From a virus, in UHGV virus genome UHGV-0125936: DNA of 35,354 nt, one strand, 5' to 3'. The notes under the pieces were generated by a model that was not told the origin of the DNA, did no database searches, and worked only from the letters and a program-made list of their open reading frames with translations. The translations under genes were made by a program, and so were the position numbers. Below, piece after piece: positions 5,901 through 35,304 of the stretch. The number at the start of each line of letters is the position of its first letter. The stretch's first letter is position 1.

Positions 5901-8900
5901 TTAAACTCCCTTGATTAATCGCCACAGAGGCGAGCCCGGCATGCTGGCCTGTTCGTTAATGACGCCAGTGATGGCATCTTTCAGTTGTCTGCCAGCGGCG
6001 CCGGCGGTTCCCTGACTTGCTGCCTGTGGTGATCCACCCTGAATATTGATATCGCCGAAGTTAACTGAAGGCACACCGCCGGAGACCTGCGGAGTACCAA
6101 CTGCCCGAACGCCCAGCGAACCATCAGCGGCGCGCGTAAGCGGCATAATGGCTTCCGGACCAGCCTCGGCAAAAACGCCTGCGCCTTTGGCAAAAGCAAA
6201 CAGCTGAGGCGTCTGAAAAACGCCATTGCTGTAAGCGCTCAGGGACGGAGAGTCGTAAACATTACCCTTCGCATTAAAGGTAAAGTTCGCGCCGGCATTC
6301 TGAATAGCGGTACCGCTGCTGGCGGTTGCGGCTGACGAGGCGCCAAAACTGAACAGTGATCCAATTGAGCTGACGCCATTAGCAACAGCCATATTCACCA
6401 GGACGTTCTGGATAATCTTCAGTACGCTGACGCCCCAGTCCTTCCAGCTGTCAACGTTGCCATTGAGCATGTCGGTGATCGTGGTGACCGCGCCACCCAT
6501 GGCCTGCTTCATGCCGTCAGCGGCCATGGAAGAATAATCAGTAGCTTCGTCCACCCAGTTCGCATAACCCTCAGACAGTCCCGTCATCCAGTCGTCACGC
6601 TGCGCATCAGAAGCTGCGTAATATCCCTCCTGGTCGAGCAGGCGCTCTTCGAGGTAGCGCTTATTAAGTGCCAGCCCCTGCTGATAGAACGTCTCGTCGA
6701 TTTCACCAGCCTGACGCTGGCGGAGAAGATCGGTATTCTTCTGCTCAAACTCCTTACGCAGATTGAACTGCTCCTGAAGTCTTTCACGGAACCTGGTTCC
6801 CTGCCCGTATCCCAGCAGTTGCGCTTCATTGGCTGCGCGGGCGCTGGCGTTACTGTCGGCAAGGTTGGCTTCGTAATTTCGCAGTTGCTCACGTAATTTA
6901 ACCTGGTCAATCAGCGTAGCATTCTGCAATACCGTCTTTTTCTGGGCTTCTGTCAGAGAAGCAAGTTCGCCCTGGCTGACCTGGTATTTAACCTTCGCCA
7001 GTTCAGTATTCTGGCCTTGCAGGGCAATCTGCTCTTTTTGCTGTTTGATCAGCTTGTCATAGGCATCAGCTGTTTTTTCCGCCTCGGATTTCCCGCCCTT
7101 ATGGCGGCTTGAGTCACGAATAGCTTGCAACTGCCTGGCTGACTCAACTTCCATGCTGACATACTTCTCACGCCAACCAGCAGGGAGATTAAGGTCAGAT
7201 GCATCGAATTCCGCCTGCTTGCGGGTTTTGTCCAATCCCTTAAGACCGGACAACTCAAGCTGTCGCTGCGCCTTGTCTATAGCTTGCTGCTGCTTATTAT
7301 CAAGTGCAGGAAGTACAGGCCCTGCATATTTTGGTGGGGACACTGCTGTAGACTGTCTGGAAACCTTGTTCAGACGGTCATACATCTCTGTAAGAGAACT
7401 TACGGCGCCAGCCATTTCTACTGTTTTATTTATAGCCTGATCAGTTATGTCGTTTATTAACTGTTGTGTTTGCTTTCTTTTATTGAGCATTTGCTCAAGT
7501 CGGCCTTCTTCAACCGCAAGTTCTGAAGCAAACTCTGCTGCTTTCTCAACCGCATCGTTATACAGCCATGTTCCCTCTGAAGCAGAATTGGCTGCTAATT
7601 TTGCGTTATAAAGTTGATTGGATAATTCAGCAACTTTCTGCTTCTGCTGTTCAATCGCACTATTTTGAGCATCCAGTGAAATATTCGCCTGTCCAAGGTT
7701 GGCGGATATCTGCGTCTGAGACATTGATTTCAGATTATCTCGTACCTGCTCGATTGTGTCCGCATATTGGATTGCAGATTCCCTGGCTTGTTCTTGGCGT
7801 TGATACATCATGTACCACGCCCCAGCACCCAACATTAAAATTCCTGGCAAACCACCAACTAACGACAAAAGCCCCGTAGCGCCAGACTTGAATAAATTCA
7901 TTACCGATGTTGATCGGTTGAGTGCTTCTTGCGACGCTGATACTGCTTTATTTGACTGAACGAGAGTGGCATTGGCGGCTATCATTTCGCGCCGTTTGGC
8001 AATAGAATTTTGTGTAGCTGTCGCTTCTGCATTTGTGTTTTTTGCAAGTTCCAACTCGGATAGCGAGAGCTGATAAGCACGCTCGGCAGCAATCGCATCT
8101 GCTGCCGCCTTTCGTTGTGATTGGGTAGCAGATTCAGCCCTTGCAGATGCGAGCGCAATTTCGTTCTTTCTGGCATCTATTAATTGCGCCGTTTGGTTCC
8201 CAAGATCGCCAAACATCCCTCCAAGATAGCGAGCTCCACCTATTGCAGCCAAAGCTCCGGCAGCCGTAGCCACAGTGTCGATATTGTCAGAAACTGTATT
8301 CAATACAGCAACAAGAGCACTTGTCGCACCAGTAGCTTCATTAGCTCCACCTACCCATGCCATGAAAGCATTTTCGACTTTCGTCGTGGCAGCAGAAACG
8401 GTCTGCGGCATTGCCTCAAATTCACCACGCATAGTGCCAAGTTGACTTATCAGGGCCGGGACAACTTTATCTGCGGTTAGCATCCCCTGATCGGCCATTG
8501 CCTTCAGATCTTTACGAGCTACACCCATCCCAGCGGCCAGCGCACGGATAACTCGATCACCGTTTTCGTTAACAGAGTTGAATTCCTCGCCCCGCAGAAC
8601 GCCCTGAGCTAATGCCTGACTAAACTGGGTGATAACAGAACTTGCCTCTGCCGTGCTGGCGCCGGATAGCTTTAGTCCAGTAGAAATGGCCTCGGTTACA
8701 TCCAGAACTTGCTGCGAACTGTATCCGTATTCACGCATTGATGCGGCGGAACGCGCAAAAAGACTCGCATTATCAGAGAAGGCGGTTCCGGTTCGTTGGC
8801 TAATATCCATCAGCGCCCGCTGAGACTCCGTGAAATCATCAGACGATTGGGAAGCCTGCTTTAGCCTGGCATTAACAGAGCTCCATTCATCGGCCAGCGA

Positions 8901-9167
8901 TATAAGATGACCAGTCGCAAATGCTCCAGCAAATGCACCTGCCATTCCCAGCGCTGAGGCCTTCGCGGTGTTTATTTGACTAGTTACCTCAGCTAAGGCA
9001 CGCTGAGTTTCACGCGAAGCTGCGGCCGCTTGGCGTCCTCCAGTCTGCATTACCCGGTAATAGTCATTCCCCATTCTTGAAGCACGAGAAATTTCAGACT
9101 GAAATGACTGAGAGTTTGCAGATATTTTGATGATCAGTTCGCGCAACGTAGCCATATTTTCACCCAT
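5901..9167 (-). CDS. H: Tail tape measure protein
   Basis: 1088 aa, Ala/Gln-rich coiled-coil-like sequence, located between chaperone G/T and M; alternative start at 9155 (MATLREL). Confidence 0.9.
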   Translation of the reverse strand: MGENMATLRELIIKISANSQSFQSEISRASRMGNDYYRVMQTGGRQAAAASRETQRALAEVTSQINTAKASALGMAGAFAGAFATGHLISLADEWSSVNARLKQASQSSDDFTESQRALMDISQRTGTAFSDNASLFARSAASMREYGYSSQQVLDVTEAISTGLKLSGASTAEASSVITQFSQALAQGVLRGEEFNSVNENGDRVIRALAAGMGVARKDLKAMADQGMLTADKVVPALISQLGTMRGEFEAMPQTVSAATTKVENAFMAWVGGANEATGATSALVAVLNTVSDNIDTVATAAGALAAIGGARYLGGMFGDLGNQTAQLIDARKNEIALASARAESATQSQRKAAADAIAAERAYQLSLSELELAKNTNAEATATQNSIAKRREMIAANATLVQSNKAVSASQEALNRSTSVMNLFKSGATGLLSLVGGLPGILMLGAGAWYMMYQRQEQARESAIQYADTIEQVRDNLKSMSQTQISANLGQANISLDAQNSAIEQQKQKVAELSNQLYNAKLAANSASEGTWLYNDAVEKAAEFASELAVEEGRLEQMLNKRKQTQQLINDITDQAINKTVEMAGAVSSLTEMYDRLNKVSRQSTAVSPPKYAGPVLPALDNKQQQAIDKAQRQLELSGLKGLDKTRKQAEFDASDLNLPAGWREKYVSMEVESARQLQAIRDSSRHKGGKSEAEKTADAYDKLIKQQKEQIALQGQNTELAKVKYQVSQGELASLTEAQKKTVLQNATLIDQVKLREQLRNYEANLADSNASARAANEAQLLGYGQGTRFRERLQEQFNLRKEFEQKNTDLLRQRQAGEIDETFYQQGLALNKRYLEERLLDQEGYYAASDAQRDDWMTGLSEGYANWVDEATDYSSMAADGMKQAMGGAVTTITDMLNGNVDSWKDWGVSVLKIIQNVLVNMAVANGVSSIGSLFSFGASSAATASSGTAIQNAGANFTFNAKGNVYDSPSLSAYSNGVFQTPQLFAFAKGAGVFAEAGPEAIMPLTRAADGSLGVRAVGTPQVSGGVPSVNFGDINIQGGSPQAASQGTAGAAGRQLKDAITGVINEQASMPGSPLWRLIKGV

Positions 9168-9192
9168 AAAAAAAACCCGCTTGATAGCGGGT
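9168..9192 (-). terminator. Rho-independent terminator downstream of the small moron gene, immediately upstream of tape measure start
   Basis: 6-bp perfect stem acccgc/gcgggt with 6-nt loop, followed on - strand by an 8-U tract. Confidence 0.6.
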
Positions 9193-9198
9193 CGTGAG

Positions 9199-9387
9199 TT
9201 ATAAACTGTCTTTTCTTTTGTGAGCGACTTGTATTAATAAATCTATTTGCGCATCTTGTTTTTTATTTATCTCTTTAAGGGCTTCAACTTGTTCATTTGC
9301 CCTTGTGCTAAACCGTATTACATAAAAAATCACAATTAGATTTATCAACCAGCCGAATATTCCAAACACTACTACCAGTGGTTCCAT
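9199..9387 (-). CDS. Small single-pass membrane protein, YebO / HK97 gp15-like moron (candidate superinfection exclusion)
   Basis: 62 aa from ATG 9387 with RBS AAGGAGG; N-terminal hydrophobic helix (VVVFGIFGWLINLIVIFYVI) then RANEQVEALKE...; AT-rich; sits between G/T and tape measure where HK97 gene 15 lies. Confidence 0.55.
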   Translation of the reverse strand: MEPLVVVFGIFGWLINLIVIFYVIRFSTRANEQVEALKEINKKQDAQIDLLIQVAHKRKDSL

Positions 9388-9444
9388 AACGCCTCCTTTT
9401 CTTAAGGAAAGAGCGTATCGCCACATTGATGACATGTGAAGCAA

Positions 9445-9723
9445 TTATTGTGTCGCAGCTGTTAGCGCCGCTTCAAGCCCTGCAAACGGGTCATTCGGTT
9501 CTGATTGCTCCTCACCACCCCAGCGCAGGATCGCATCGTCCAGCGGTACTTTTGCCCCCTGCGAACCGTAGATGGCAGAGACGATCTGGGCGGCCTGAAT
9601 GTCACCGCGAATATCGCCAACCGGACTTTGCCTGTCGTACTCAATCCACATCAGAAGCTCGCTTGCCGTCATATTCTGCCGAAGCTCTGAGAGCGTGCGC
9701 CCCATCCGGAGCGCAAGCGACAT
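9445..9723 (-). CDS. T: T segment of the G-T tail assembly chaperone (expressed by -1 frameshift from G; no independent start assumed)
   Basis: ORF open in -1 frame relative to G from about 22 codons upstream of G stop; GGGAAAAG heptamer-like motif 18 nt before G stop. Confidence 0.55.
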   Translation of the reverse strand: MSLALRMGRTLSELRQNMTASELLMWIEYDRQSPVGDIRGDIQAAQIVSAIYGSQGAKVPLDDAILRWGGEEQSEPNDPFAGLEAALTAATQ

Positions 9724-9731
9724 CAGAAACT

Positions 9732-10115
9732 TTACGCCGGGGGTTGAGACTTTTCCCGCGCTTCGTCCGCGTTGTTGATCAGGTCAAGCGCCTGTTTGAG
9801 CAGGCGTGAATGGACGGGGCCGTAGATTTCACGCACCTGCTCTTCTTCGTCTACGCTGAATACCGGTTGCTTATCGGTGTCGCACAGGACGTCAATGAAG
9901 AGCACCACGTCAGCGCAAAGATTACGGTGTGCCTTTTCCGATACCGACACATTTTCATCATCAGCACCCGCTTTCACCACCTCCTGCCAGCGCAGCCAGG
10001 CTTCTCCAGACGGCTCACGGAGAACCACTTTGACGCCTTCCCACTCAGGAACGGCGACCATCTTATGACGAAATCCCGACATCTTAGCCAGGGCGAGATT
10101 TTTAATATTCTTCAT
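9732..10115 (-). CDS. G: Tail assembly chaperone G
   Basis: 127 aa acidic protein directly downstream of major tail gene and upstream of overlapping T frame. Confidence 0.7.
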   Translation of the reverse strand: MKNIKNLALAKMSGFRHKMVAVPEWEGVKVVLREPSGEAWLRWQEVVKAGADDENVSVSEKAHRNLCADVVLFIDVLCDTDKQPVFSVDEEEQVREIYGPVHSRLLKQALDLINNADEAREKSQPPA

Positions 10116-10123
10116 GCGACCTC

Positions 10124-10567
10124 TCAGGAGCCAGACTCGATGTTTTCAGGCTTACCTTTCAGGCGCAGGGAGAACGTTGCCGCCACTACGCCGTTGGTAC
10201 CTGAAGACCAGGTGTGCTGGCGGATTTCAGCCAGGAACTTAAAGCCCTTGCCGGACGGGAAGATAACCTGGAAAGCGTAGGTCGTATCGTTGTCATAGGC
10301 CTCACGCAAGGCGTCCTGCGCCGGATTCTTGTAGAAGTTGCCGGACAGAGAGATTTCTGACGGAGAAGGCAGGCCGTTGATGTTCTCCTGCTCGGTAGAG
10401 CAAAGTGTTGTTACGTCGATATCCTGCTTCTGACCACCGGTGAACTGAATTTCTTTGATGGTGCAACTCAGATCGAGGAAGGTTGCGGAATCCATCGTTT
10501 CTTTGGTGGCTGGCAGGGAGGAAATAAGGATCTTCGTCAGCTGCGATTTTTCATAAAGTGCAGACAT
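10124..10567 (-). CDS. Major tail protein
   Basis: 147 aa; RBS AGGAGA; position immediately upstream of G/T chaperone. Confidence 0.65.
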   Translation of the reverse strand: MSALYEKSQLTKILISSLPATKETMDSATFLDLSCTIKEIQFTGGQKQDIDVTTLCSTEQENINGLPSPSEISLSGNFYKNPAQDALREAYDNDTTYAFQVIFPSGKGFKFLAEIRQHTWSSGTNGVVAATFSLRLKGKPENIESGS

Positions 10568-17433: not shown

Positions 17434-17637
17434 CTATGCCGAATGTTTGTCTACCTGTTCGAGTTTCTGATCGCCTTTCCGATGCCCGGAGACAACATGA
17501 CCTGAAATGGTCACCGTCGGCATCTCCTGCCCTACAGCGTGCGAGAACTGAATGGATGTCACGTCCTTCATCTCCACGCCATCAATCACCAGGCGAACGA
17601 ATTTTCCATTGCGGTATTCAATGCTGAGGTCTTTCAT
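17434..17637 (-). CDS. Hypothetical small protein translationally coupled to HNH gene
   Basis: 67-aa ORF whose start overlaps the HNH stop. Confidence 0.3.
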   Translation of the reverse strand: MKDLSIEYRNGKFVRLVIDGVEMKDVTSIQFSHAVGQEMPTVTISGHVVSGHRKGDQKLEQVDKHSA

Positions 17638-17990
17638 TACGTGCTCCAGTGAGACGCAGGATCGAGCGGGTAGCCATTGGCATCACAGCCTATTACCGCG
17701 CCGCTCTTCTCCATCCTCTGTTTCGTTGAGTCATGATGCGCTTTACACAGTGGCTGCCAGTTCTCTTTACTCCAGAACAGGAGCTGTGCTTTCGATATGG
17801 CCAGCGGGTTACCTGACTTAAGCGCATCTTTGAGTTTGTGGGGCTCGATATGGTCAACCACCGTTGCTGGGGTAATCCGCCCCTGCTGCTCGCACATCAC
17901 ACATAGTGGGTGCTGCTGCAGGAAACGCAGACGGGCCTTATCCCATCGGCTGCCATATACGCGGGGCTCTTTGTTCATGACAGTCTCCAT
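17637..17990 (-). CDS. HNH endonuclease (terminase-associated)
   Basis: CVMCEQQGR...VDHIEPH...CKAHHDSTKQ HNH zinc-finger motif; located just upstream of cos/TerS as in HK97 gp74. Confidence 0.85.
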   Translation of the reverse strand: METVMNKEPRVYGSRWDKARLRFLQQHPLCVMCEQQGRITPATVVDHIEPHKLKDALKSGNPLAISKAQLLFWSKENWQPLCKAHHDSTKQRMEKSGAVIGCDANGYPLDPASHWST

Positions 17991-18034: not shown

Positions 18035-18615
18035 TTATGCCAGCCTCCATGCGCGGCGGCGTTCTGTCCTCGGCTCGTTGTCAGGGTGACGCTCAACCGT
18101 CTGGAGGTCAGCGTGATCCACCAGCGAGTAACACGGATAAATCACCCGACCACCGAATGCCTCACCGACAGCGTAATCAGCTGCCAGCGTTTTGTTCCAT
18201 GTACTGAGCATGCGCGCCAAACTTCCCCGAGGAGGGCTATAACATACGCCGTGAATCAGTTTGCTTAATACGATGTGGTCACCACAGACGCGATCCGCAT
18301 CCACCAGCATTCCGGCAATCTCTTTCTGATACTGCGGCGGTCGGCCGGTACCGAGATAAAAGCTCAGCATGTCGTCAGGGAAGCGCACCAGCCATTCAGT
18401 TACCTTATCGGTGAAGCCCTGCACAGGAAGCGCGTCTTCTTCCAACACCACTACCCGGCAAGGTTGCTCAGCAGCCCATTCGATAGCGCGACGATGATTC
18501 CAGTTCGCGCCGCGGTTACCGTCATCAATAAGCAGATGAGCATCCAGCAGCGCGGCAAGTCGTTGCGCATGACCTATGCGAGAGTGATGGCCAACCACAA
18601 CAAACTTAATCTCTG
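18035..18615 (-). CDS. Putative nucleotide-sugar transferase-like (GT-A-like) protein
   Basis: 193 aa from ATGATG at 18615 (RBS GAGG upstream); KFVVVGHHSRIGHAQRLAALLDAHLLIDDG...VVVLEEDALP resembles GT-A/GT25-type N-terminus by eye only. Confidence 0.35.
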
Positions 18616-19115
18616 TCTGCATCATTATGGGTAAACACCTCATTACGGGCTCGTCGTGCAACCTCAGCAGCTTCATGCTTACAGTCAAAGTAACCAAGGT
18701 GATGCCGGGTACCATGCTCTTTATAATGAGCACACCATTTCTTCATATCCCGATTCCAAGTAACTCCACGAAATCCTGACGCAGAGGAGTGACGTTGCCT
18801 GTTTTCAGCGTTTTGTTTTGGTGTTGCTATTCGAAGATGTTTTGGGTTGACGCAAAGAGTGTTATGGCAGGTATGGTCAATCAAATATCCGTCTGGGATA
18901 GGTCCGTTGCTAAGTTCCCATGAAGCTCTGTGTGCAAGAATCATTTTTCCAGGCCCGCCAGCAGTAACTCCAGCTTTCAAATGCCCGTAAAATAAATACC
19001 TCCCACCGCCTATAGGACTCTTTCTCTTAGCCGCATTCCAGATCCAGCATTCATCTGGAGAAGCAACAACGACCTTTTCCCAGAATCTTTCACTGAAAGT
19101 TCTGGTCTTTTTCAT
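18606..19115 (-). CDS. HNH homing endonuclease with AP2 DNA-binding domain
   Basis: LIDHTCHNTLCVNPKHL HNH_3-like motif; C-terminal SGFRGVTWNRDMKKWCAHY...GYFDCKHEAA AP2-like. Confidence 0.75.
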   Translation of the reverse strand: MKKTRTFSERFWEKVVVASPDECWIWNAAKRKSPIGGGRYLFYGHLKAGVTAGGPGKMILAHRASWELSNGPIPDGYLIDHTCHNTLCVNPKHLRIATPKQNAENRQRHSSASGFRGVTWNRDMKKWCAHYKEHGTRHHLGYFDCKHEAAEVARRARNEVFTHNDADRD

Positions 19116-19121
19116 ATCAGC

Positions 19122-20579
19122 CTATTTGTGTTTAAACCAGGCGCATTCTTTGCCAATACCATCAGTCTTAAAAACTGTGTGGATACGCGGGCCGGTGACA
19201 ATGCGATCGCCAAGCGATTTAGCAACAATGCCAAAAGCGATCATATCCCCCACCGCGGCGCCAGCCTGTTCTTTCTTCCAGAATCGATAACTTTCGATCC
19301 GGTAGTAAAGACGGATGATGCCGTGAGCGAACGCCATTACATCAGCGCGGGTGCCACCCAGCAGGCCAGCGTTAAGCATCACATCGCCGCGGTGCGCTTC
19401 AATGAATTCCTGATAGATACGCTCAGGATGATTCTGTTTCGCCCAGGTGTCGGCGTATGTCTTCGGTTCAGAACCGACGTAAACATTCCCGGGCTGCATT
19501 TCTTCCCACGGTGCGCGGAGCATTTCGACATCGGTACCATCAGTACACCAGACGAACCGGTATTCAGGGTGATCTCGCAGGTGCTGCCAGATATGCAGCC
19601 AGCGCCGGAAGTAGACATTCATCTTCACCTCAGGAACGCGGTACAACTCAACATCTGCCGGTGGCGTCTGCAGTTCATCCACCAGCGCGATACGTCCACA
19701 CTGCCGGAGTGATGCGGCCCATTTAGCCAGCATCTCAGGCGAGGCCGCCATTTTCGTACCGCGCTGCGGGTCAGGCTGGCTGGTGAGCAACGTTGTGATT
19801 ACCACGTCGCGCTGCTTCCGGTATTCAACGTAACCGGTAAAGCCGGTATCACGTCGTTCGTTGTGGATCTTCACGTTACGTTCCACCAGCGCCTGGCGGT
19901 CGGGCCTCGGCACTGAACGCTCTACGGCCTCATGCTCATCGAGAGAATGGATCAGCTTTTCTGAACCGACGACATCAGCGTACGCCCACGTAGTCAGTCC
20001 TGCGTTATGGATGCGCAAGGCGAGGTCGCTGTGCTCGTACATGCCGCGACCATAAACCGGATCGAATCCGCCTACCTTCTCGATGGCGCTGCGGTGGTAA
20101 TAAAGCATCACGCCGCGCTGCCCGGTGTACGCCACATGCTGATCGTCACGGTAAAGCACCGAAAGGTCATTCAGCTTGTTCGTGCCAGCAAGATCGAGAA
20201 ACTGGTAAGCCAGGTGCGGCTCTGGTGATTCGATGTAAGGGAGGTGCCAGTTATCAGCGATAGGCCAGGCGTCATCATCCCATAAAAACAGATGCTCACA
20301 CCCGGCATCCATCAGGGCTGTCAGGCTGGCGTTCTTCGACGCAACAATGCCGAGTGATGTTTCATGGCGAAGCAGCTGCACGCCGTGTGGAACTACCGCT
20401 GCAGGTTTTGAACCATCATCGACTACCACCACCAGCGCACCGGCGGGAAGATGCTTCATGTGCTGTTCGAGTGCTCGCTTTAAAACGTCTGCGCGCTGAT
20501 GCGTCGAAATGGCAATGCCGATCCGTGATGAAACGACGCTGGCGGGAGCGTATGGGACACCATCAATAGTGACCTGCAT
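19122..20579 (-). CDS. Two-domain glycosyltransferase (N-terminal family-2-like GT-A domain; C-terminal second transferase-like domain)
   Basis: VVVVDDGS and LWDDDAW (DXD) motifs in N-terminal half; C-terminal half has CTDGTDV and NAGLLGG; RBS GGGAGG. Confidence 0.6.
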   Translation of the reverse strand: MQVTIDGVPYAPASVVSSRIGIAISTHQRADVLKRALEQHMKHLPAGALVVVVDDGSKPAAVVPHGVQLLRHETSLGIVASKNASLTALMDAGCEHLFLWDDDAWPIADNWHLPYIESPEPHLAYQFLDLAGTNKLNDLSVLYRDDQHVAYTGQRGVMLYYHRSAIEKVGGFDPVYGRGMYEHSDLALRIHNAGLTTWAYADVVGSEKLIHSLDEHEAVERSVPRPDRQALVERNVKIHNERRDTGFTGYVEYRKQRDVVITTLLTSQPDPQRGTKMAASPEMLAKWAASLRQCGRIALVDELQTPPADVELYRVPEVKMNVYFRRWLHIWQHLRDHPEYRFVWCTDGTDVEMLRAPWEEMQPGNVYVGSEPKTYADTWAKQNHPERIYQEFIEAHRGDVMLNAGLLGGTRADVMAFAHGIIRLYYRIESYRFWKKEQAGAAVGDMIAFGIVAKSLGDRIVTGPRIHTVFKTDGIGKECAWFKHK

Positions 20580-20590
20580 AAAACCTCCCG

Positions 20591-21469
20591 TCAGATTCCT
20601 CGCGACCGTGTATTCCAGAGGATGCCGCCTGGCTTGAGCGCATTGCGAAGAGCATCGTTCACCGCTTCGTGCATCGCCTGTTGCAAGCCAACTACTGAAG
20701 CTGTTTGCGCATCAATCTTTGCCTGGAGGGCTGCGAACAAATCGCTTTCGCGTACGGCGGAGATAATGGCTTCGCACATCTCATCATTGAGGCTGGTTTT
20801 GGTGGCATTATTACCATCAGCGGGATTAGCCTTATCATGACTAATTGCTCCAGGGAAGCCACCAAAAGACAAACCAACATTGAATGTCGTCTTTTCATTA
20901 TTGCTGGCTGATTGAGCGGCTTCATGCACCTTATAGCGATCAGCCATAAACTCAACGTTGCTCTGGCCATCTTCAACTCCGATGGTCATGCCAGCTGCGT
21001 ACCGTTTGCCACCATAATCCACGTTCATCTTCACGCTGTAGTTCGTAGACAATGTGCCATTGCCGATCAGCGCCTCGTGGATGTAAGCCTTGCCGGTTTT
21101 ATCAACAAACCAGCCACCTTTAAGGCCATGAAGTGCGCAGCTGTTACGGATCTCTTCGTCCAGCGCCTCAATAATCTCTTCGGTATCGACAGAAGAAACC
21201 CCTTCGATCCAGTCACCGGCTCGCCAATCTCGTGCTGAGCCATCTTCTGCAATTGGACGCAGGCGCACCTGCAATCTCTCACCAGCTTTGAGGCCGGAAA
21301 TAAGGCATACGGTAGCTGGCCAGAAGATGCGTTTTTTCATAAGTCGGCCATCTTCATGAAGGCATTGCAGTTCTAGCACCGCGCAGCCACCCGGCCATTT
21401 CCATTCGACGTCCACACCAAAAGGTTTGGGAGTGGTTTTTACGTAAGGGACGATTGAAGGTTCTGACAT
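20591..21469 (-). CDS. FN3-like + J-fibre-motif protein (paralog of a distal segment of the tail-tip J protein)
   Basis: 293 aa from MSEPSIV (RBS AAGGAAAA); KRYAAGMTIGVEDGQSNVEFMADRYKV and IHEALIGNGTLS match J in this window (QYYAAGMGIGVEN...FLADRFAV; IRDALIGDGTIS); N-terminal beta-rich FN3-like region. Confidence 0.5.
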   Translation of the reverse strand: MSEPSIVPYVKTTPKPFGVDVEWKWPGGCAVLELQCLHEDGRLMKKRIFWPATVCLISGLKAGERLQVRLRPIAEDGSARDWRAGDWIEGVSSVDTEEIIEALDEEIRNSCALHGLKGGWFVDKTGKAYIHEALIGNGTLSTNYSVKMNVDYGGKRYAAGMTIGVEDGQSNVEFMADRYKVHEAAQSASNNEKTTFNVGLSFGGFPGAISHDKANPADGNNATKTSLNDEMCEAIISAVRESDLFAALQAKIDAQTASVVGLQQAMHEAVNDALRNALKPGGILWNTRSRGI

Positions 21470-21729
21470 TTTAATTTTCCTTTTAGACGTGAGCCTGTCG
21501 CACGGCAAAGCCGCCGAAAGTAATCGGTTTGCCCAGGCTCACAGCTGAAAGACTTTCTTTGATGTGCGCGTGCGATGCGCATAAATGCCGCGCTATGCGG
21601 TTACTGTCTGAATATCAGGGTATTACTTCGTTCTAACCCCGGGTAAGGTAAGCATTCAGCCCGTCAGTGGTGGGACACTGATTCACGCAAAGAGGAGGAA
21701 TGGCTGAATAACTCTTCGAAGGAAAAAGG

Positions 21730-22194
21730 ATGATCACCAAAGTAAAAATCAAGTTTATTTCCCCTATTGATGGATCGGTATCAGATACCCCCACGGAGCA
21801 TGCAATTCCCGTAGTTCCATTGACAGTATGGCCAAGTAGCTCAAAAGATATAAACGTTTATAAACCAAATGGATTGAAGGCTGGTGCCTACGCACTTATA
21901 GATACCGGAGCAGATATTTGCTATGTGGATTCAGACTTTGCTGACGATTTAAAACTCCCAATCGCGGAAAAAACAACTGTGAGCGGAGCCACCTCAACAA
22001 TAGAAACTACAGTTCGGCATGCGGTAATATCGTTCACTGAGGACGAAAGAGTTTTTTCAACAGAATTGACTTCAGTGCCATTGGTAAGTAACGGGAGAAA
22101 ATTCCAGGTCGTTTTCGGAATGCAACTAATTAAAATGGGCGCCCTTACGATGGATTTTTCCAATCAAGTATTTGAGTTAACATTTTTTAACTAA
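21730..22194 (+). CDS. Retropepsin-like (clan AA) aspartic protease, moron on opposite strand
   Basis: ALIDTGAD active-site motif and downstream VVFGMQLIKMGALTMDF flap-like motif; RBS AAGGA; AT-rich relative to flanks. Confidence 0.65.
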   Translation: MITKVKIKFISPIDGSVSDTPTEHAIPVVPLTVWPSSSKDINVYKPNGLKAGAYALIDTGADICYVDSDFADDLKLPIAEKTTVSGATSTIETTVRHAVISFTEDERVFSTELTSVPLVSNGRKFQVVFGMQLIKMGALTMDFSNQVFELTFFN

Positions 22195-22432: not shown

Positions 22433-22690
22433 CTAACAGTCGTCATCTGGACGTGCTACAGCTCGACATGCGGCCATGCATGCGCGCTTCATATCGAGCT
22501 CTGCCTGGCGTATCCACTCAACAGCTTCCCAGTCGTGAGGAGTGCGTTGTACATCACCTACATGCTCACGCAGCAACTTAATAAACTGGCGGCTGAGATC
22601 CTTAAACTGGTTCATCTTGCCGATTTCACCGTAAGAGAGTTCGCGGTAGCCCTTAACGGTGCTTCCGTCCTGTGGTTTAGCTTCGCTCAT
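22433..22690 (-). CDS. Hypothetical protein downstream of spanins
   Basis: 85 aa from MSEAKPQ; no recognisable motif. Confidence 0.35.
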   Translation of the reverse strand: MSEAKPQDGSTVKGYRELSYGEIGKMNQFKDLSRQFIKLLREHVGDVQRTPHDWEAVEWIRQAELDMKRACMAACRAVARPDDDC

Positions 22691-22756
22691 CGGATTCTCT
22701 ATTTTTGGTGGGTATGGAAACTTACCCGCGATTGAATGTGAACACAGCAGCATGCT

Positions 22757-24964: not shown

Positions 24965-25747
24965 TTAATAAGTTGTCGCCTTCTCAAACTCTACTGCCGC
25001 GTGACGCTCCCCCTGGCGCAGCGTGTCCACCAGCATTTCATAAAAGGGTTTCCAGTTGCGTGACCATGAGGACTGATGGAGGTCCGGGAGACGCTTCAGA
25101 ATGGCACGGTGTACCGTCGCCGAGGAGATTGCAGAGAAGCCATTACCAGAGCAACGTTCACACGTTTTGAAAACCGGTGCGCCGCGGTCTTTAGTCGCTT
25201 TGCGGTCCAACACTTCTCCTTTACCGCCACACCTGCACCGGGCAAGGATCACTTTCTTTCCTCCGCATGTTTCGCAAACTCTTTTCACCAGCTCATTTTT
25301 AATCTTTGGGGCCACTACTTCGGCACCGTCGGCGTCGAAAATACCAGGATGTTTAACCACATCCTCATTCCCGGAGATAAACCCGGTACCGCTGCAACTG
25401 TGGCATGTCACGCTGGTAGCCGCCGAACGGGAGTAATCAGCAAAGGCAAATTGCGCCAACATCTGCATGCACCATCCAAAATGCCCACCAGCTGCTTTGC
25501 GAACATTCTTTGGTGCCGTTTCCATCGCGTAACGAGCCAGCGCCTGAACTGCGAGCTGTTCATCTGTTTTGCTGATGCCGGCCTTGCCAAAGAAAGCAGC
25601 CAGGCCGAAGCGCGCACGGCTGCTGGTGGTGCCAATCGCCGCCATTACATCTGTTCCTGTAAGGCGGTCCGGAGAAGTTCCCTTCACGTCATCGCTGATG
25701 TGCATTCCCTGAGGACTAAAATGTTTGAGTGACGCTTCCAGTTTCAT
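24965..25747 (-). CDS. Q: Late antiterminator Q (phage 82/933W-like Q family)
   Basis: LTGTDVMAAIG, LAQFAFADYSRSAAT, multiple CxxCxGxG zinc-finger motifs, SWSRNWKPFYEMLV, matching recalled Q-family pattern; position between replication and lysis. Confidence 0.7.
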   Translation of the reverse strand: MKLEASLKHFSPQGMHISDDVKGTSPDRLTGTDVMAAIGTTSSRARFGLAAFFGKAGISKTDEQLAVQALARYAMETAPKNVRKAAGGHFGWCMQMLAQFAFADYSRSAATSVTCHSCSGTGFISGNEDVVKHPGIFDADGAEVVAPKIKNELVKRVCETCGGKKVILARCRCGGKGEVLDRKATKDRGAPVFKTCERCSGNGFSAISSATVHRAILKRLPDLHQSSWSRNWKPFYEMLVDTLRQGERHAAVEFEKATTY

Positions 25748-29256: not shown

Positions 29257-29922
29257 ATGAAAAAACACTGGAACGAACTGGCTAAAACCAGACTGGCTGC
29301 GCTTGGAATGACCCAAGCAGAACTCTCTGAGAAGATGGGTGTAACTCAGGGTGCAATGGGCCATTGGCTTAACGGGCGAAGAAGTCCATCGCTAGCAGAC
29401 GTTGGCTCTATATTCCAGATCCTTGGAATATCTGGGGCTTCCATAAATCCAGACGGGACTTTCACTGTCTCGGAGGATCTAACCCTACCCCCTGTTAAAC
29501 AGCAGTATGAGTACCCCCTATTTACAACAGTGCAAGCTGGTCAGTTTGCTGATGTTGGAACGTTTACTGAGCGTGATGCTCTCCAGTGGATTCCTACAAC
29601 CAGAAAAGCTGGGCCGGACTCGTTTTGGCTTGAGGTAAGCGGGCATTCAATGACAGCCCCGCCAGGAACAAGACCAAGCTTCCCAGAAGGTATGTTGATT
29701 TTAGTTGATCCATCTGAGGATGTTGAACCAGGGGATTTTTGTGTTGCCGGCATACACAACGATTCAGAGGTTACTTTTAAGCGTTTCGTTCGAGAAGATG
29801 GTCAACCATGGCTGGAACCGCTAAACCCAAACCCTCGCTACCAAAGCATACCCTGTAATGAAAACTGCAGGATCATAGGCAAAGTAGTAAAAGCCCAATG
29901 GCCAGAAGATACTTTTGATTAA
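29257..29922 (+). CDS. cI: CI repressor (HTH + S24 LexA-like autopeptidase)
   Basis: N-terminal HTH ([23 protein letters not shown]); QAG candidate cleavage site; C-terminal GHSM...FKRF Ser-Lys dyad. Confidence 0.9.
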
Positions 29923-33990: not shown

Positions 33991-35304
33991 ATGGATAAAG
34001 TTACATATCCAACAGGCGTCGAAAACCACGGTGGCACATTGCGCATCTGGTTTAATTTCAAAGGTAAGCGTGTCAGGGAGAGCCTCGGTGTCCCTGACAC
34101 CGCTAAGAACAGGAAGATCGCCGGGGAACTGCGGACATCGGTATGCTTTGCCATCAGAACAGGCACATTTGAGTACGCGGCACAGTTTCCGGACTCCCCT
34201 AACCTCAAGACTTTTGGGGTGGGTAAGAAAGAAATTACAGTGTCAGAGCTTGCCGAAAAGTGGCTGGATCTGAAGAGAATGGAAATCTGCGCGAACGCAC
34301 TCAACCGTTATGAGTCGGTCACAAGGAATATGGTGCCAAGGATCGGGGGGAATCGGCTGGTATCGGCGGTGACTAAAGAGGAATTACTGTATATCAGGAA
34401 AGATTTACTGATCGGTCACCAGATGCCAATGAAGGGGAAGGTCCCGGCAAAAGGACGAAGTGTTGTCACCGTAAATTATTACATGACAACTATTGCCGGA
34501 ATGTTTCAGTTTGCCGCAGATCACGGTTATTTAGAGGTGAACCCATTCGACGGGATAAAGCCTCTTAAAAAAGCCAGGGCAGAGCCAGATCCGCTAACTC
34601 GTGACGAATTTATTCGCCTGATTGATGCATGCCGGCATCAGCAGACGAAAAACCTGTGGTCACTCGCATTATACACAGGGGTCCGTCATGGGGAGCTGAC
34701 CTCCCTGGCCTGGGAGGATATCGATCTTGAAGCTGGAACAATAACAATCAGGCGTAATTATACAAAACTGGGTGAATTCACTCTACCGAAAACTGAGGCC
34801 AGTACCAACAGAGTGATACACCTCATTCAGCCTGCGATCAGCGTCCTGAGGAATCAGGCGGAAATGACCAGGCTTGGAAAAAAGCATCAGATCGATGTTC
34901 AGCTGCGCGAATACGGCAGAACTGAGAGCCACGAGTGTACATTTGTTTTCAACCCTCAACTGGTCAGAAGATGTCAGCAGGTGGGGATCATCTACAAAGT
35001 CGACTCGATAGGTGATTTATGGGACGCAGCGATGAAGCGAGCAGGGATAAGGCACAGGAAAGCATATCAGTCGCGTCACACGTATGCATGCTGGTCACTG
35101 TCAGCTGGCGCTAACCCCAGCTTCATTGCCAGTCAGATGGGCCATGCGAGCGCCCAGATGGTCTTCAACGTATATGGTGCGTGGATGGCAGACAGCAGTA
35201 GTGAGCAGATCGCAATGCTGAATCAGAGGCTCGCGGATTTTGCCCCACAGATGCCCCAAAGCATACCTAGCGGCACCAGAGCATTATTGAAATCAGTAAG
35301 TTAG
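33991..35304 (+). CDS. int: Tyrosine integrase
   Basis: 437 aa; C-terminal catalytic region with R...HxxR...Y pattern (RHTYACWSL, GHASAQMVFNVYGAW); terminal position. Confidence 0.9.
   Translation: MDKVTYPTGVENHGGTLRIWFNFKGKRVRESLGVPDTAKNRKIAGELRTSVCFAIRTGTFEYAAQFPDSPNLKTFGVGKKEITVSELAEKWLDLKRMEICANALNRYESVTRNMVPRIGGNRLVSAVTKEELLYIRKDLLIGHQMPMKGKVPAKGRSVVTVNYYMTTIAGMFQFAADHGYLEVNPFDGIKPLKKARAEPDPLTRDEFIRLIDACRHQQTKNLWSLALYTGVRHGELTSLAWEDIDLEAGTITIRRNYTKLGEFTLPKTEASTNRVIHLIQPAISVLRNQAEMTRLGKKHQIDVQLREYGRTESHECTFVFNPQLVRRCQQVGIIYKVDSIGDLWDAAMKRAGIRHRKAYQSRHTYACWSLSAGANPSFIASQMGHASAQMVFNVYGAWMADSSSEQIAMLNQRLADFAPQMPQSIPSGTRALLKSVS

What the first reader, a model, noticed from the sequence alone, without database searches (positions are those of the whole stretch)
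9168..9387. YebO / HK97 gp15-like membrane moron with its own terminator between G/T chaperone and tape measure
A 62-aa single-TM protein (hydrophobic helix then RANEQVEALKE) resembles the small inner-membrane protein family of E. coli YebO and HK97 gp15, which lies at this position in HK97 and blocks DNA entry of related phages. The gene is AT-rich and followed by a strong intrinsic terminator.
Basis: partly seen in the sequence, partly recalled or inferred. Interest (0 to 1): 0.55.

Follow-up and report, generated by a model that had tools for sequence, protein, structure and literature searches.

The report
Known HK97 gp15 exclusion gene copy
This small gene is a near-identical copy (58 of 62 residues) of the well-studied phage HK97 gene 15, whose inner-membrane protein lets a resident prophage stop related phages from injecting their DNA, so it is real but already known.

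Summary
On the minus strand, 9199-9387 encodes a 62-aa protein with one N-terminal hydrophobic helix followed by RANEQVEALKE. It has a strong Shine-Dalgarno site and 32% GC against 51-58% in its neighbours. A hairpin plus T8 terminator (9168-9193) abuts the tape-measure start. The gene lies between the tail chaperone G/T genes (Pfam Phage_TAC_1, Phage_tail_T) and an HK97-type tape measure.

The protein is 94% identical to HK97 Gp15 ("moron product"). A 400-nt stretch covering the ribosome site, gene, terminator and tape-measure start is 98% identical to HK97 DNA. It passes Pfam's YebO cut-off (40.2 vs 27 bits) and is 38% identical to E. coli K-12 YebO over its N-terminal 48 residues.

The exact protein is already in RefSeq as "YebO family protein", seen on 216 contigs, mostly Enterobacter and other Enterobacteriaceae prophages. 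Related phages LAU1 and AsXd-1 carry unrelated AT-rich lipoprotein cassettes in the same slot, which confirms its moron nature.

The function, superinfection exclusion by blocking DNA injection of phages with HK97-type tails, is inferred by orthology and was not tested here. A promoter could not be shown from sequence.

Verdict: already known, low interest.

The parts
9199..9387 (-). gp15/YebO-like CDS, 62 aa: N-terminal TM helix (about residues 3-24), then a polar helical tail that starts with R25 and R29
   Evidence: ORF and translation. Pfam YebO 40.2 bits > GA 27. phrog_5031 at 2.5e-28. 94% identity to HK97 Gp15. AF2 single-sequence model gives one helix over 2-61, pLDDT 94.
9392..9399 (-). 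Shine-Dalgarno AAAGGAGG, 4 nt upstream of the ATG
   Evidence: Read from the sequence. Identical in HK97.
9412..9440 (-). Candidate weak sigma-70 promoter TTCACA-N17-TACGCT (8 of 12) in the T/gp15 spacer. Inferred, not shown.
   Evidence: Relaxed scan. Both hexamers are identical in HK97 while the spacer has 3 changes. The stricter consensus scan found no promoter.
9168..9193 (-). Intrinsic terminator: 8-pair G+C-rich hairpin plus T8, ending directly at the tape-measure start region
   Evidence: Identical to the 'terminator, putative' feature of HK97.
9168..9444 (-). Whole AT-rich moron cassette, from just after the T stop codon to the T-run before the tape-measure gene
   Evidence: GC trough of 0.32-0.38. 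Similarity to LAU1 and AsXd-1 stops near the T stop codon and resumes at the T-run/TMP start.
9445..9723 (-). T part of the G-T tail assembly chaperone (upstream neighbour)
   Evidence: PF06223 at 2e-20. HK97 gene 14 is annotated as a -1 frameshift product.
9732..10115 (-). Tail assembly chaperone G
   Evidence: PF06222 at 4.9e-59.
5901..9155 (-). Tape measure protein (downstream neighbour). The start is taken at the ATG equivalent to HK97's annotated start; the ORF's first ATG is at 9167.
   Evidence: Pfam TMP_3, Phage_HK97_TLTM and Tape_meas_lam_C. 90% identity to HK97 gp16, with the last ~90 residues LAU1-like.
24965..25747 (-). Q antiterminator, the likely reason the cassette's terminator does not block tape-measure expression in lytic growth
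   Evidence: PF03589 at 2.9e-52. The read-through role is inferred from lambdoid late-operon biology.

Best explanation
This is an orthologue of the phage HK97 gene 15 moron, carried by an HK97-like (Hendrixvirinae) prophage of an enterobacterium, most likely of the Enterobacter group. The cassette is a self-contained, horizontally acquired unit derived from yebO. It comprises a weak promoter (inferred), a strong ribosome site, a 62-aa ORF and a terminator, inserted between the tail chaperone T and the tape-measure gene. In the lysogen it is expected to be transcribed independently of the repressed late operon, with its transcript ending at the hairpin/T8. The protein inserts in the inner membrane through its N-terminal helix. 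By the positive-inside rule, about 3 residues face the periplasm and the helical tail carrying R25/R29 faces the cytoplasm; this topology is my inference. There it blocks genome injection, after normal adsorption, by incoming siphophages whose tail tube and tape measure are of the HK97 type, including the phage's own kin. In lytic growth, Q-modified polymerase reads through the terminator, so the tape measure is still made. Shown here: orthology, synteny, cassette anatomy, and replacement of the cassette in relatives. Inferred from HK97 work: expression in the lysogen, membrane location, and the exclusion phenotype with its tail/TMP dependence.
For: 58/62 identity to HK97 Gp15. 98% nucleotide identity over 400 nt spanning the RBS, ORF, terminator and TMP start. 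Same gene order as in HK97: 13/14, 15, terminator, H. Pfam YebO above threshold, phrog_5031, and 38% identity to K-12 YebO at E = 4e-7. One TM segment and a GC trough. Terminator. The exact protein is found in chromosomal prophages, always as T-YebO-TMP, on 216 contigs. The protein is nearly invariant across Enterobacter, E. coli, Citrobacter and Salmonella copies. Its neighbouring TMP is 90% identical to HK97 gp16. A Q antiterminator is present. The slot holds unrelated AT-rich cassettes with their own hairpin/T-run in LAU1 and AsXd-1. Function of HK97 gp15: it is expressed from the prophage, inserts in the inner membrane, and excludes HK97 and HK75 without blocking receptors; sensitivity depends on the phage tail region (PMC3594210; PMC10883804).
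Against: No experiment was done on this copy. Four substitutions relative to HK97 (L14M, V23L, I24L, K57Q in HK97), three of them in the TM helix, could in principle shift specificity, though all are conservative. No sigma-70 promoter reaches 9 of 12; the best candidates score 8 of 12. No NCBIfam or PADLOC model matches. The molecular mechanism of gp15 is itself unresolved in the literature: 'unknown mechanisms' in PMC10883804, while a secondary review speaks of a TMP-PtsG complex (PMC12939059). The host appears to be Enterobacter-like rather than E. coli, so the phages it excludes there are unknown.
Confidence: 0.88

Rival explanations
1. It acts like chromosomal YebO (function unknown, possibly envelope-stress related). 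It would then be a lysogenic-conversion factor that changes host physiology, and would not exclude phages in this host.
For: It meets the Pfam YebO threshold and shares the TM helix and the R-x-S-x-R-x-N-E-Q motif with K-12 YebO.
Against: It is 94% identical to HK97 gp15 but only 31-38% identical to YebO, and it lacks YebO's C-terminal ~35 residues. The review reports that over-expressing or deleting E. coli yebO has no effect on HK97, whereas gp15 excludes it (PMC3594210).
Confidence: 0.06
2. It is a phage-cycle gene, such as a tail-assembly accessory or a holin-like membrane protein, needed for lytic growth rather than a prophage-expressed accessory gene.
For: It lies inside the tail operon, in the same orientation, and is a small TM protein.
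Against: Close relatives with the same G/T genes and a homologous, partly diverged tape measure carry unrelated cargo in this slot, so it is dispensable. Its GC is 20 points lower than its neighbours, and it has its own terminator. The lysis genes lie elsewhere, around 23.2-24.5 kb.
Confidence: 0.03
3. It excludes phages by acting on a host inner-membrane entry factor, for instance by masking PtsG, rather than on the incoming tape measure or tail. This would be a different mechanism with the same phenotype.
For: HK97 needs PtsG and FkpA, and its TMP interacts with PtsG (bioRxiv 10.1101/2025.12.01.691526). One review describes gp15 acting via a TMP-PtsG complex (PMC12939059). The predicted topology leaves almost nothing in the periplasm, which favours intramembrane or cytoplasmic-face contacts.
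Against: [quoted passage not shown]
Confidence: 0.2

Closest known systems
Escherichia phage HK97 Gp15 (AAF31105; the first described 'moron' product and a superinfection exclusion protein; Cumby et al. 2012 as cited in PMC3594210)
   Same: 62 aa in both, 58 identical. Same slot between gene 14 (T) and the tape measure. Same RBS and terminator. AT-rich. Next to an HK97-type tape measure.
   Different: Four conservative substitutions. The carrier prophage is a different mosaic: the major tail protein lacks HK97's C-terminal Ig-like domain, the last ~90 aa of the TMP are LAU1-like, and the early region differs. The host is probably Enterobacter or another enterobacterium rather than E. coli K-12.
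E. coli K-12 YebO (b1825, NP_416339; Pfam PF13974), a chromosomal small inner-membrane protein of unknown function
   Same: Single N-terminal TM helix followed by R-x-S-x-R-x-N-E-Q and a helical stretch. 38% identity over 48 aa.
   Different: YebO is 95 aa, with a longer N-terminus and an acidic C-terminal tail that are absent here. It is chromosomal, next to mgrB, not in a prophage. It is reported to have no effect on HK97 (PMC3594210).
YebO-like genes of Klebsiella phages (e.g. ST147-VIM1phi7.2 QBP28426; VLCpiS11a gp44), phrog_5031
   Same: Same PHROG family. The ST147-VIM1phi7.2 copy lies directly upstream of the tape-measure gene.
   Different: Only 33-47% identical and 77-84 aa long. The VLCpiS11a copy is on the opposite strand, between the major tail gene and the chaperone. 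Neither has been characterised.
Other injection-blocking exclusion proteins of prophages: P22 SieA, TP-J34 Ltp, Tuc2009 Sie2009
   Same: They work alike: envelope-located, prophage-expressed, and they block DNA entry after adsorption. For Ltp the target is the tape measure (PMC10883804).
   Different: No sequence relationship. Ltp is a lipoprotein and SieA is a larger polytopic protein.
Lipoprotein cassettes in the same T|TMP slot of Enterobacter phage LAU1 (121-aa ORF, phrog_27124) and Aeromonas phage AsXd-1 (AXC33169)
   Same: Same insertion point, AT-rich (0.32-0.34 GC in LAU1), each with its own hairpin/T-run just before the TMP start, and envelope-targeted.
   Different: Unrelated sequences with lipoprotein signal peptides and unknown function. 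In the LAU1 record only a 55-aa fragment is annotated.

Membership tests
HK97 gp15 orthologous group (superinfection exclusion moron) | Full-length, high sequence identity to HK97 Gp15 | tested here: met
   58/62 identical with no gaps. tblastn E = 2e-32.
HK97 gp15 orthologous group (superinfection exclusion moron) | Located between the G/T tail chaperone genes and the tape-measure gene | tested here: met
   Pfam on the neighbours, the HK97 annotation, and the same order in 6 chromosomal prophages.
HK97 gp15 orthologous group (superinfection exclusion moron) | Single transmembrane helix (small inner-membrane protein) | tested here: met
   Hydropathy of 2.5-2.6 over residues 3-24 and an all-helical model. 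Membrane location itself was not tested.
HK97 gp15 orthologous group (superinfection exclusion moron) | Expressed from the repressed prophage | not testable with these tools
   Reported for HK97 (PMC3594210). Testing it here needs RNA or protein data from a lysogen.
HK97 gp15 orthologous group (superinfection exclusion moron) | Blocks DNA injection of HK97/HK75-type phages without blocking adsorption | not testable with these tools
   Literature only.
Pfam YebO (PF13974) | Score at or above the curated gathering threshold | tested here: met
   40.2 bits against 27. HK97 Gp15 itself scores 35.4 and K-12 YebO 124.5.
Pfam YebO (PF13974) | Coverage of the whole 80-position model, including the C-terminal tail | tested here: not met
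   Only model positions 8-52 are matched, and the protein ends where YebO's tail begins. It is therefore a truncated, diverged family member and not a yebO orthologue.
Chromosomal yebO orthologue | Chromosomal context next to mgrB / yobF-cspC | tested here: not met
   K-12 context shown. Here the gene lies inside a prophage tail operon.
Moron (as defined in PMC3594210) | Extra DNA between two genes that are adjacent, or hold other cargo, in related phages | tested here: met
   LAU1 and AsXd-1 share the T and TMP flanks but hold unrelated cassettes.
Moron (as defined in PMC3594210) | Base composition different from the surrounding genes | tested here: met
   32% GC against 51-58%.
Moron (as defined in PMC3594210) | Own factor-independent terminator | tested here: met
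   Annotated in HK97.
Moron (as defined in PMC3594210) | Own sigma-70 promoter | tested here: inconclusive
   No site reaches 9 of 12 or better. The best candidates are TTCACA-N17-TACGCT at 9440-9412 and TTGAAG-N18-CACAAT at 9476-9447, both 8 of 12. The hexamers of the first are conserved in HK97.

The most novel reading that the evidence does not exclude
The T|TMP junction of HK97-like phages may be a dedicated exchange slot for alternative envelope-located exclusion cassettes that are matched to the tape measure encoded immediately downstream. A YebO-like TM protein travels with the HK97-type tape-measure core in the window and in HK97. Unrelated lipoproteins travel with the divergent LAU1/AsXd-1-type core. 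The window TMP is 82-100% identical to HK97 in every 60-column block of alignment columns 241-780, against 12-58% identical to LAU1 there. Each phage would thus carry, next to its TMP, the inhibitor of its own kind of TMP. Alternatively, the V23/I24/K57 variant seen here may have a shifted exclusion spectrum in Enterobacter.
Probability: 0.15. Interest if true: 0.4.

Novelty: already known. Interest (0 to 1): 0.08.

Why it matters
It adds little new. It is one more copy of the founding example of a phage moron, already catalogued in RefSeq as 'YebO family protein' and seen on hundreds of contigs. Its practical value is for annotation: the gene should be labelled 'HK97 gp15-like superinfection exclusion protein', and a lysogen carrying this prophage can be expected to resist HK97-type siphophages at the DNA-injection step. 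That is relevant when choosing phages against Enterobacter, E. coli or Citrobacter strains. The side observation that the same slot holds unrelated lipoprotein cassettes in close relatives is a modest lead for finding further exclusion genes.

Tried and rejected
- NCBIfam: no model matches the 62-aa protein.
- PADLOC: no defence-system model matches it or the LAU1 lipoprotein.
- The strict sigma-70 consensus scan found no promoter in 8800-10200. A relaxed scan gave only 8-of-12 candidates, so an own promoter is inferred from HK97, not shown.
- Rfam at gathering threshold found nothing in the window, so no known RNA overlaps the cassette. ARAGORN found no tRNA or tmRNA.
- The primary paper (Cumby et al. 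2012, PMC3430355) is not held in the library. The function therefore rests on the authors' own commentary (PMC3594210) and on later papers that cite it.
- A literature search for 'YebO' plus 'small membrane protein' returned nothing useful on YebO function.
- The 81-aa TTG-initiated ORF (9199-9444) was rejected as the start, because the SD/ATG pair and the HK97 annotation both point to 9387.
- A chance ORF was rejected because of the family hits and conservation across genera.
- The large homology searches (search for homologous proteins, the search of protein representatives) were deliberately not run, because the answer was already decisive.
- The AF2 single-sequence model only says 'one long helix' and was not used for fold searches.

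Full report
**1. What is in the sequence**

The feature lies on the minus strand. An ATG at 9387 opens a 62-codon ORF that ends at 9199: MEPLVVVFGIFGWLINLIVIFYVIRFSTRANEQVEALKEINKKQDAQIDLLIQVAHKRKDSL. AAAGGAGG (9392-9399) lies 4 nt upstream of this ATG.

Kyte-Doolittle 19-residue means are 2.5-2.6 over residues 3-24 and fall below zero from residue 21 onward. That indicates one hydrophobic helix followed by a polar tail. A single-sequence AlphaFold2 model gives one continuous helix over residues 2-61 at pLDDT 94. That is unsurprising for such a sequence and is used only as a consistency check.

The CDS is 32.3% GC (GC3 27%). Its neighbours are T at 58%, G at 54% and the tape measure at 51%, and the window as a whole is 52%.

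Five bases after the stop codon begins a hairpin, GACCCGCT-ATCA-AGCGGGTT, whose last two T belong to the T8 run; hairpin and run together span 9168-9193. It folds at -14.7 kcal/mol, z = -3.6 to -4.5, and none of 200 shuffles folds as well. The T-run abuts the first ATG of the tape-measure ORF (9167). The ATG that corresponds to HK97's annotated tape-measure start is at 9155.

**2. Surroundings**

Upstream on the coding strand are a Phage_TAC_1 chaperone (9732-10115, 4.9e-59) and a Phage_tail_T ORF (9445-9723, 2e-20). Downstream is a protein of about 1084 aa carrying TMP_3, Phage_HK97_TLTM and Tape_meas_lam_C.

The window as a whole is a lambdoid, HK97-like prophage read in reverse:
- integrase at 33991-35304
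- CI-like S24 repressor at 29257-29922
- replication genes
- Q antiterminator at 24965-25747
- lysis genes
- terminase, head and tail genes, down to J at the left end

**3. Identity**

tblastn against 50,697 phage records finds the protein at 93.5-95.2% identity in HK97, HK75, HK106, HK446, HK544, HK633, mEp234 and mEpX1. In HK97 the matching gene is '15: Gp15, moron product'. It is flanked by gene 14 (T, made by a -1 frameshift), a 'putative terminator' and the tape measure H/gp16.

The pairwise protein alignment is 58/62 identical without gaps. HK97 differs at four positions: M14, L23, L24 and Q57. At the DNA level, 400 nt covering the end of T, the spacer, RBS, ORF, terminator and TMP start are 98% identical. 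The terminator and RBS are invariant.

Other family evidence:
- Pfam YebO (PF13974) scores 40.2 bits, above its gathering cut-off of 27, covering model positions 8-52 of 80.
- HK97 Gp15 itself scores 35.4 bits and E. coli K-12 YebO 124.5 bits.
- BLASTP against K-12 YebO, taken from the annotated genome, gives 38% identity over 48 residues at E = 4e-7.
- The shared core is the TM helix plus R-x-S-x-R-x-N-E-Q. YebO's longer N-terminus and acidic C-terminal tail are absent.
- PHROGs places the protein in phrog_5031 at 2.5e-28, with unknown function.

The exact 62-aa sequence is already public, on 216 contigs. It is named 'YebO family protein [Enterobacter hormaechei]' and 'MULTISPECIES ... [Enterobacteriaceae]'. 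In the six chromosomal places inspected it is always T - YebO - TMP, and those loci are 96-97% identical to the window over the aligned stretches (5.3-8.2 kb of the 8.2 kb compared).

Among 15 cluster members from Enterobacter, E. coli, Citrobacter and Salmonella, 47 of 62 positions are invariant. Only 6 of 5,426 complete E. coli genomes carry the locus, and RefSeq calls the gene 'YebO family protein' there.

**4. Is it a moron?**

The megablast matches of AsXd-1 and SaltyDalty begin just beyond the T stop codon (window 9449) and cover G/T and the major tail gene, but not the cassette. LAU1 is among the unlisted rows of that search. A direct alignment shows that LAU1, like AsXd-1, loses similarity to the window near the T stop codon and regains it at the T-run/TMP start.

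In the same slot, LAU1 has a 121-aa ORF with a lipoprotein signal peptide (MVKILILIIFLIAGC...). It falls in phrog_27124, and the record annotates only its last 55 codons. AsXd-1 has an unrelated 116-aa ORF that begins MKKLVLICIIFFGFSC....

Both cassettes end in their own hairpin/T-run just before the TMP start, and the LAU1 cassette is AT-rich at 0.32-0.34 GC. The slot is therefore a cassette exchange point. The window's cargo meets three of the four features given for morons in PMC3594210: extra DNA relative to relatives, deviant composition, and its own terminator.

The fourth feature, an own promoter, could not be shown. No site reaches 9 of 12. The best candidates are TTCACA-N17-TACGCT (9440-9412) and TTGAAG-N18-CACAAT (9476-9447), both 8 of 12. 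The hexamers of the first are identical in HK97 while its spacer differs at three positions, which is only a hint.

**5. How it most likely works**

According to the authors' own account (PMC3594210):
- HK97 gp15 is expressed from the prophage and inserts in the inner membrane.
- It acts independently of repressor immunity.
- It does not inhibit other phages that use the same periplasmic and inner-membrane entry factors.
- It is escaped when the tail region is swapped for that of HK022.
- E. coli yebO over-expression or deletion has no effect on HK97.

[quoted passage not shown] HK97 entry needs LamB, FkpA and PtsG, and its TMP interacts with PtsG (bioRxiv 10.1101/2025.12.01.691526). One review words gp15's action as being on a 'TMP-PtsG complex' (PMC12939059).

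The window's protein is 94% identical to HK97 gp15, and the TMP encoded next to it is 90% identical to HK97 gp16, differing mainly in the last ~90 residues. I therefore infer the same function: a prophage-expressed inner-membrane protein that blocks the tape-measure-dependent step of DNA translocation by HK97-type siphophages, including the phage's own kin.

My own inferences beyond the literature are two.
- By the positive-inside rule (M-E-P before the helix, R25 and R29 immediately after it), only about 3 residues would face the periplasm. The inhibitory contact is then likely within the membrane or at its cytoplasmic face.
- The strong terminator placed directly in front of the essential TMP gene is tolerated because the late operon is transcribed by Q-modified, terminator-resistant polymerase. 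A Q gene is present in the window.

**6. Rivals**

- A host-physiology role like YebO is unlikely, given the truncation, the 94% versus 31-38% identities, and the reported lack of any YebO effect on HK97.
- A role in the lytic cycle is unlikely, because relatives replace the cassette with unrelated cargo and because of its composition and terminator.
- A host-factor-directed mechanism (masking PtsG) cannot be excluded with these tools and remains a mechanistic sub-rival.
- A chance ORF is excluded by the family scores and cross-genus conservation.

**7. Verdict**

Both the observation and the interpretation are correct. The feature is an orthologue of the founding moron gene, HK97 gene 15, and is already described experimentally in HK97 and catalogued in RefSeq. 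It is not novel, and interest is low.

The only mildly new angle is comparative. The T|TMP slot carries alternative envelope-protein cassettes that co-occur with different tape-measure cores. Simple linkage explains this as well as any functional matching does.

Noticed in passing
L003 (Enterobacter phage LAU1) 9711-10076(-); L004 (Aeromonas phage AsXd-1) 1150-1500(-): In the same T|TMP slot these close relatives carry unrelated AT-rich cassettes that encode lipoprotein-like proteins. LAU1 has a 121-aa ORF with lipobox LIAGC (phrog_27124), of which the GenBank record annotates only a 55-aa fragment. Each cassette has its own hairpin/T-run before the TMP start. They are candidate alternative exclusion genes.
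   Followed up: partly
window 22433-22753 (-): A 106-aa ORF between the lysis region and the late genes matches the Pfam Acb2/Tad1 hairpin domain (PF24729, 2.1e-10, above threshold). This suggests a cyclic-nucleotide sponge type anti-CBASS/anti-Thoeris protein.
   Followed up: no
window 10124-10567 (-): The major tail protein is 147 aa. It matches the N-terminal domain of HK97 gp12 almost residue for residue but lacks HK97's ~90-aa C-terminal Ig-like extension.
   Followed up: partly
window 5901-9155 (-): The tape measure is a mosaic. It is 82-100% identical to HK97 gp16 over most of its length, but its last ~90 residues are identical to LAU1's and only 19-65% identical to HK97's. Its middle (alignment columns 241-780) is only 12-58% identical to LAU1.
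   Followed up: partly
window 17637-17990 (-) and 18606-19115 (-): Two HNH endonuclease ORFs lie just upstream of the small terminase gene. The second has HNH_3 plus an AP2 DNA-binding domain, which is typical of homing or cos-cleavage accessory HNH genes in HK97-like phages.
   Followed up: no
window 19122-22194: An accessory block lies between the lysis genes and the terminase. It holds a 485-aa ORF with a sub-threshold GT2 glycosyltransferase hit, a 305-aa ORF with a Phage_Tail_Tip fibre domain, and an aspartyl-protease-like ORF on the opposite strand (21730-22194, +). Relatives annotate glycosyl/glucosyltransferases here, so this may be O-antigen-modifying lysogenic conversion.
   Followed up: no
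L005 (Klebsiella phage ST147-VIM1phi7.2) 850-2716; L006 (Klebsiella phage VLCpiS11a) 2489-2743: More distant YebO-like genes (33-47% identity, phrog_5031) also sit beside tail chaperone and tape-measure genes. In ST147-VIM1phi7.2 an IS21 element lies immediately upstream, where the chaperone genes would be expected. In VLCpiS11a the gene is on the opposite strand.
   Followed up: partly
window 9720-9760 (-): The G to T -1 frameshift site appears to be CGG GAA AAG (an A-AAG lysine slip) near the end of G. After it, the -1 frame reads into the T ORF. HK97 annotates the equivalent join. It was read by eye only.
   Followed up: no
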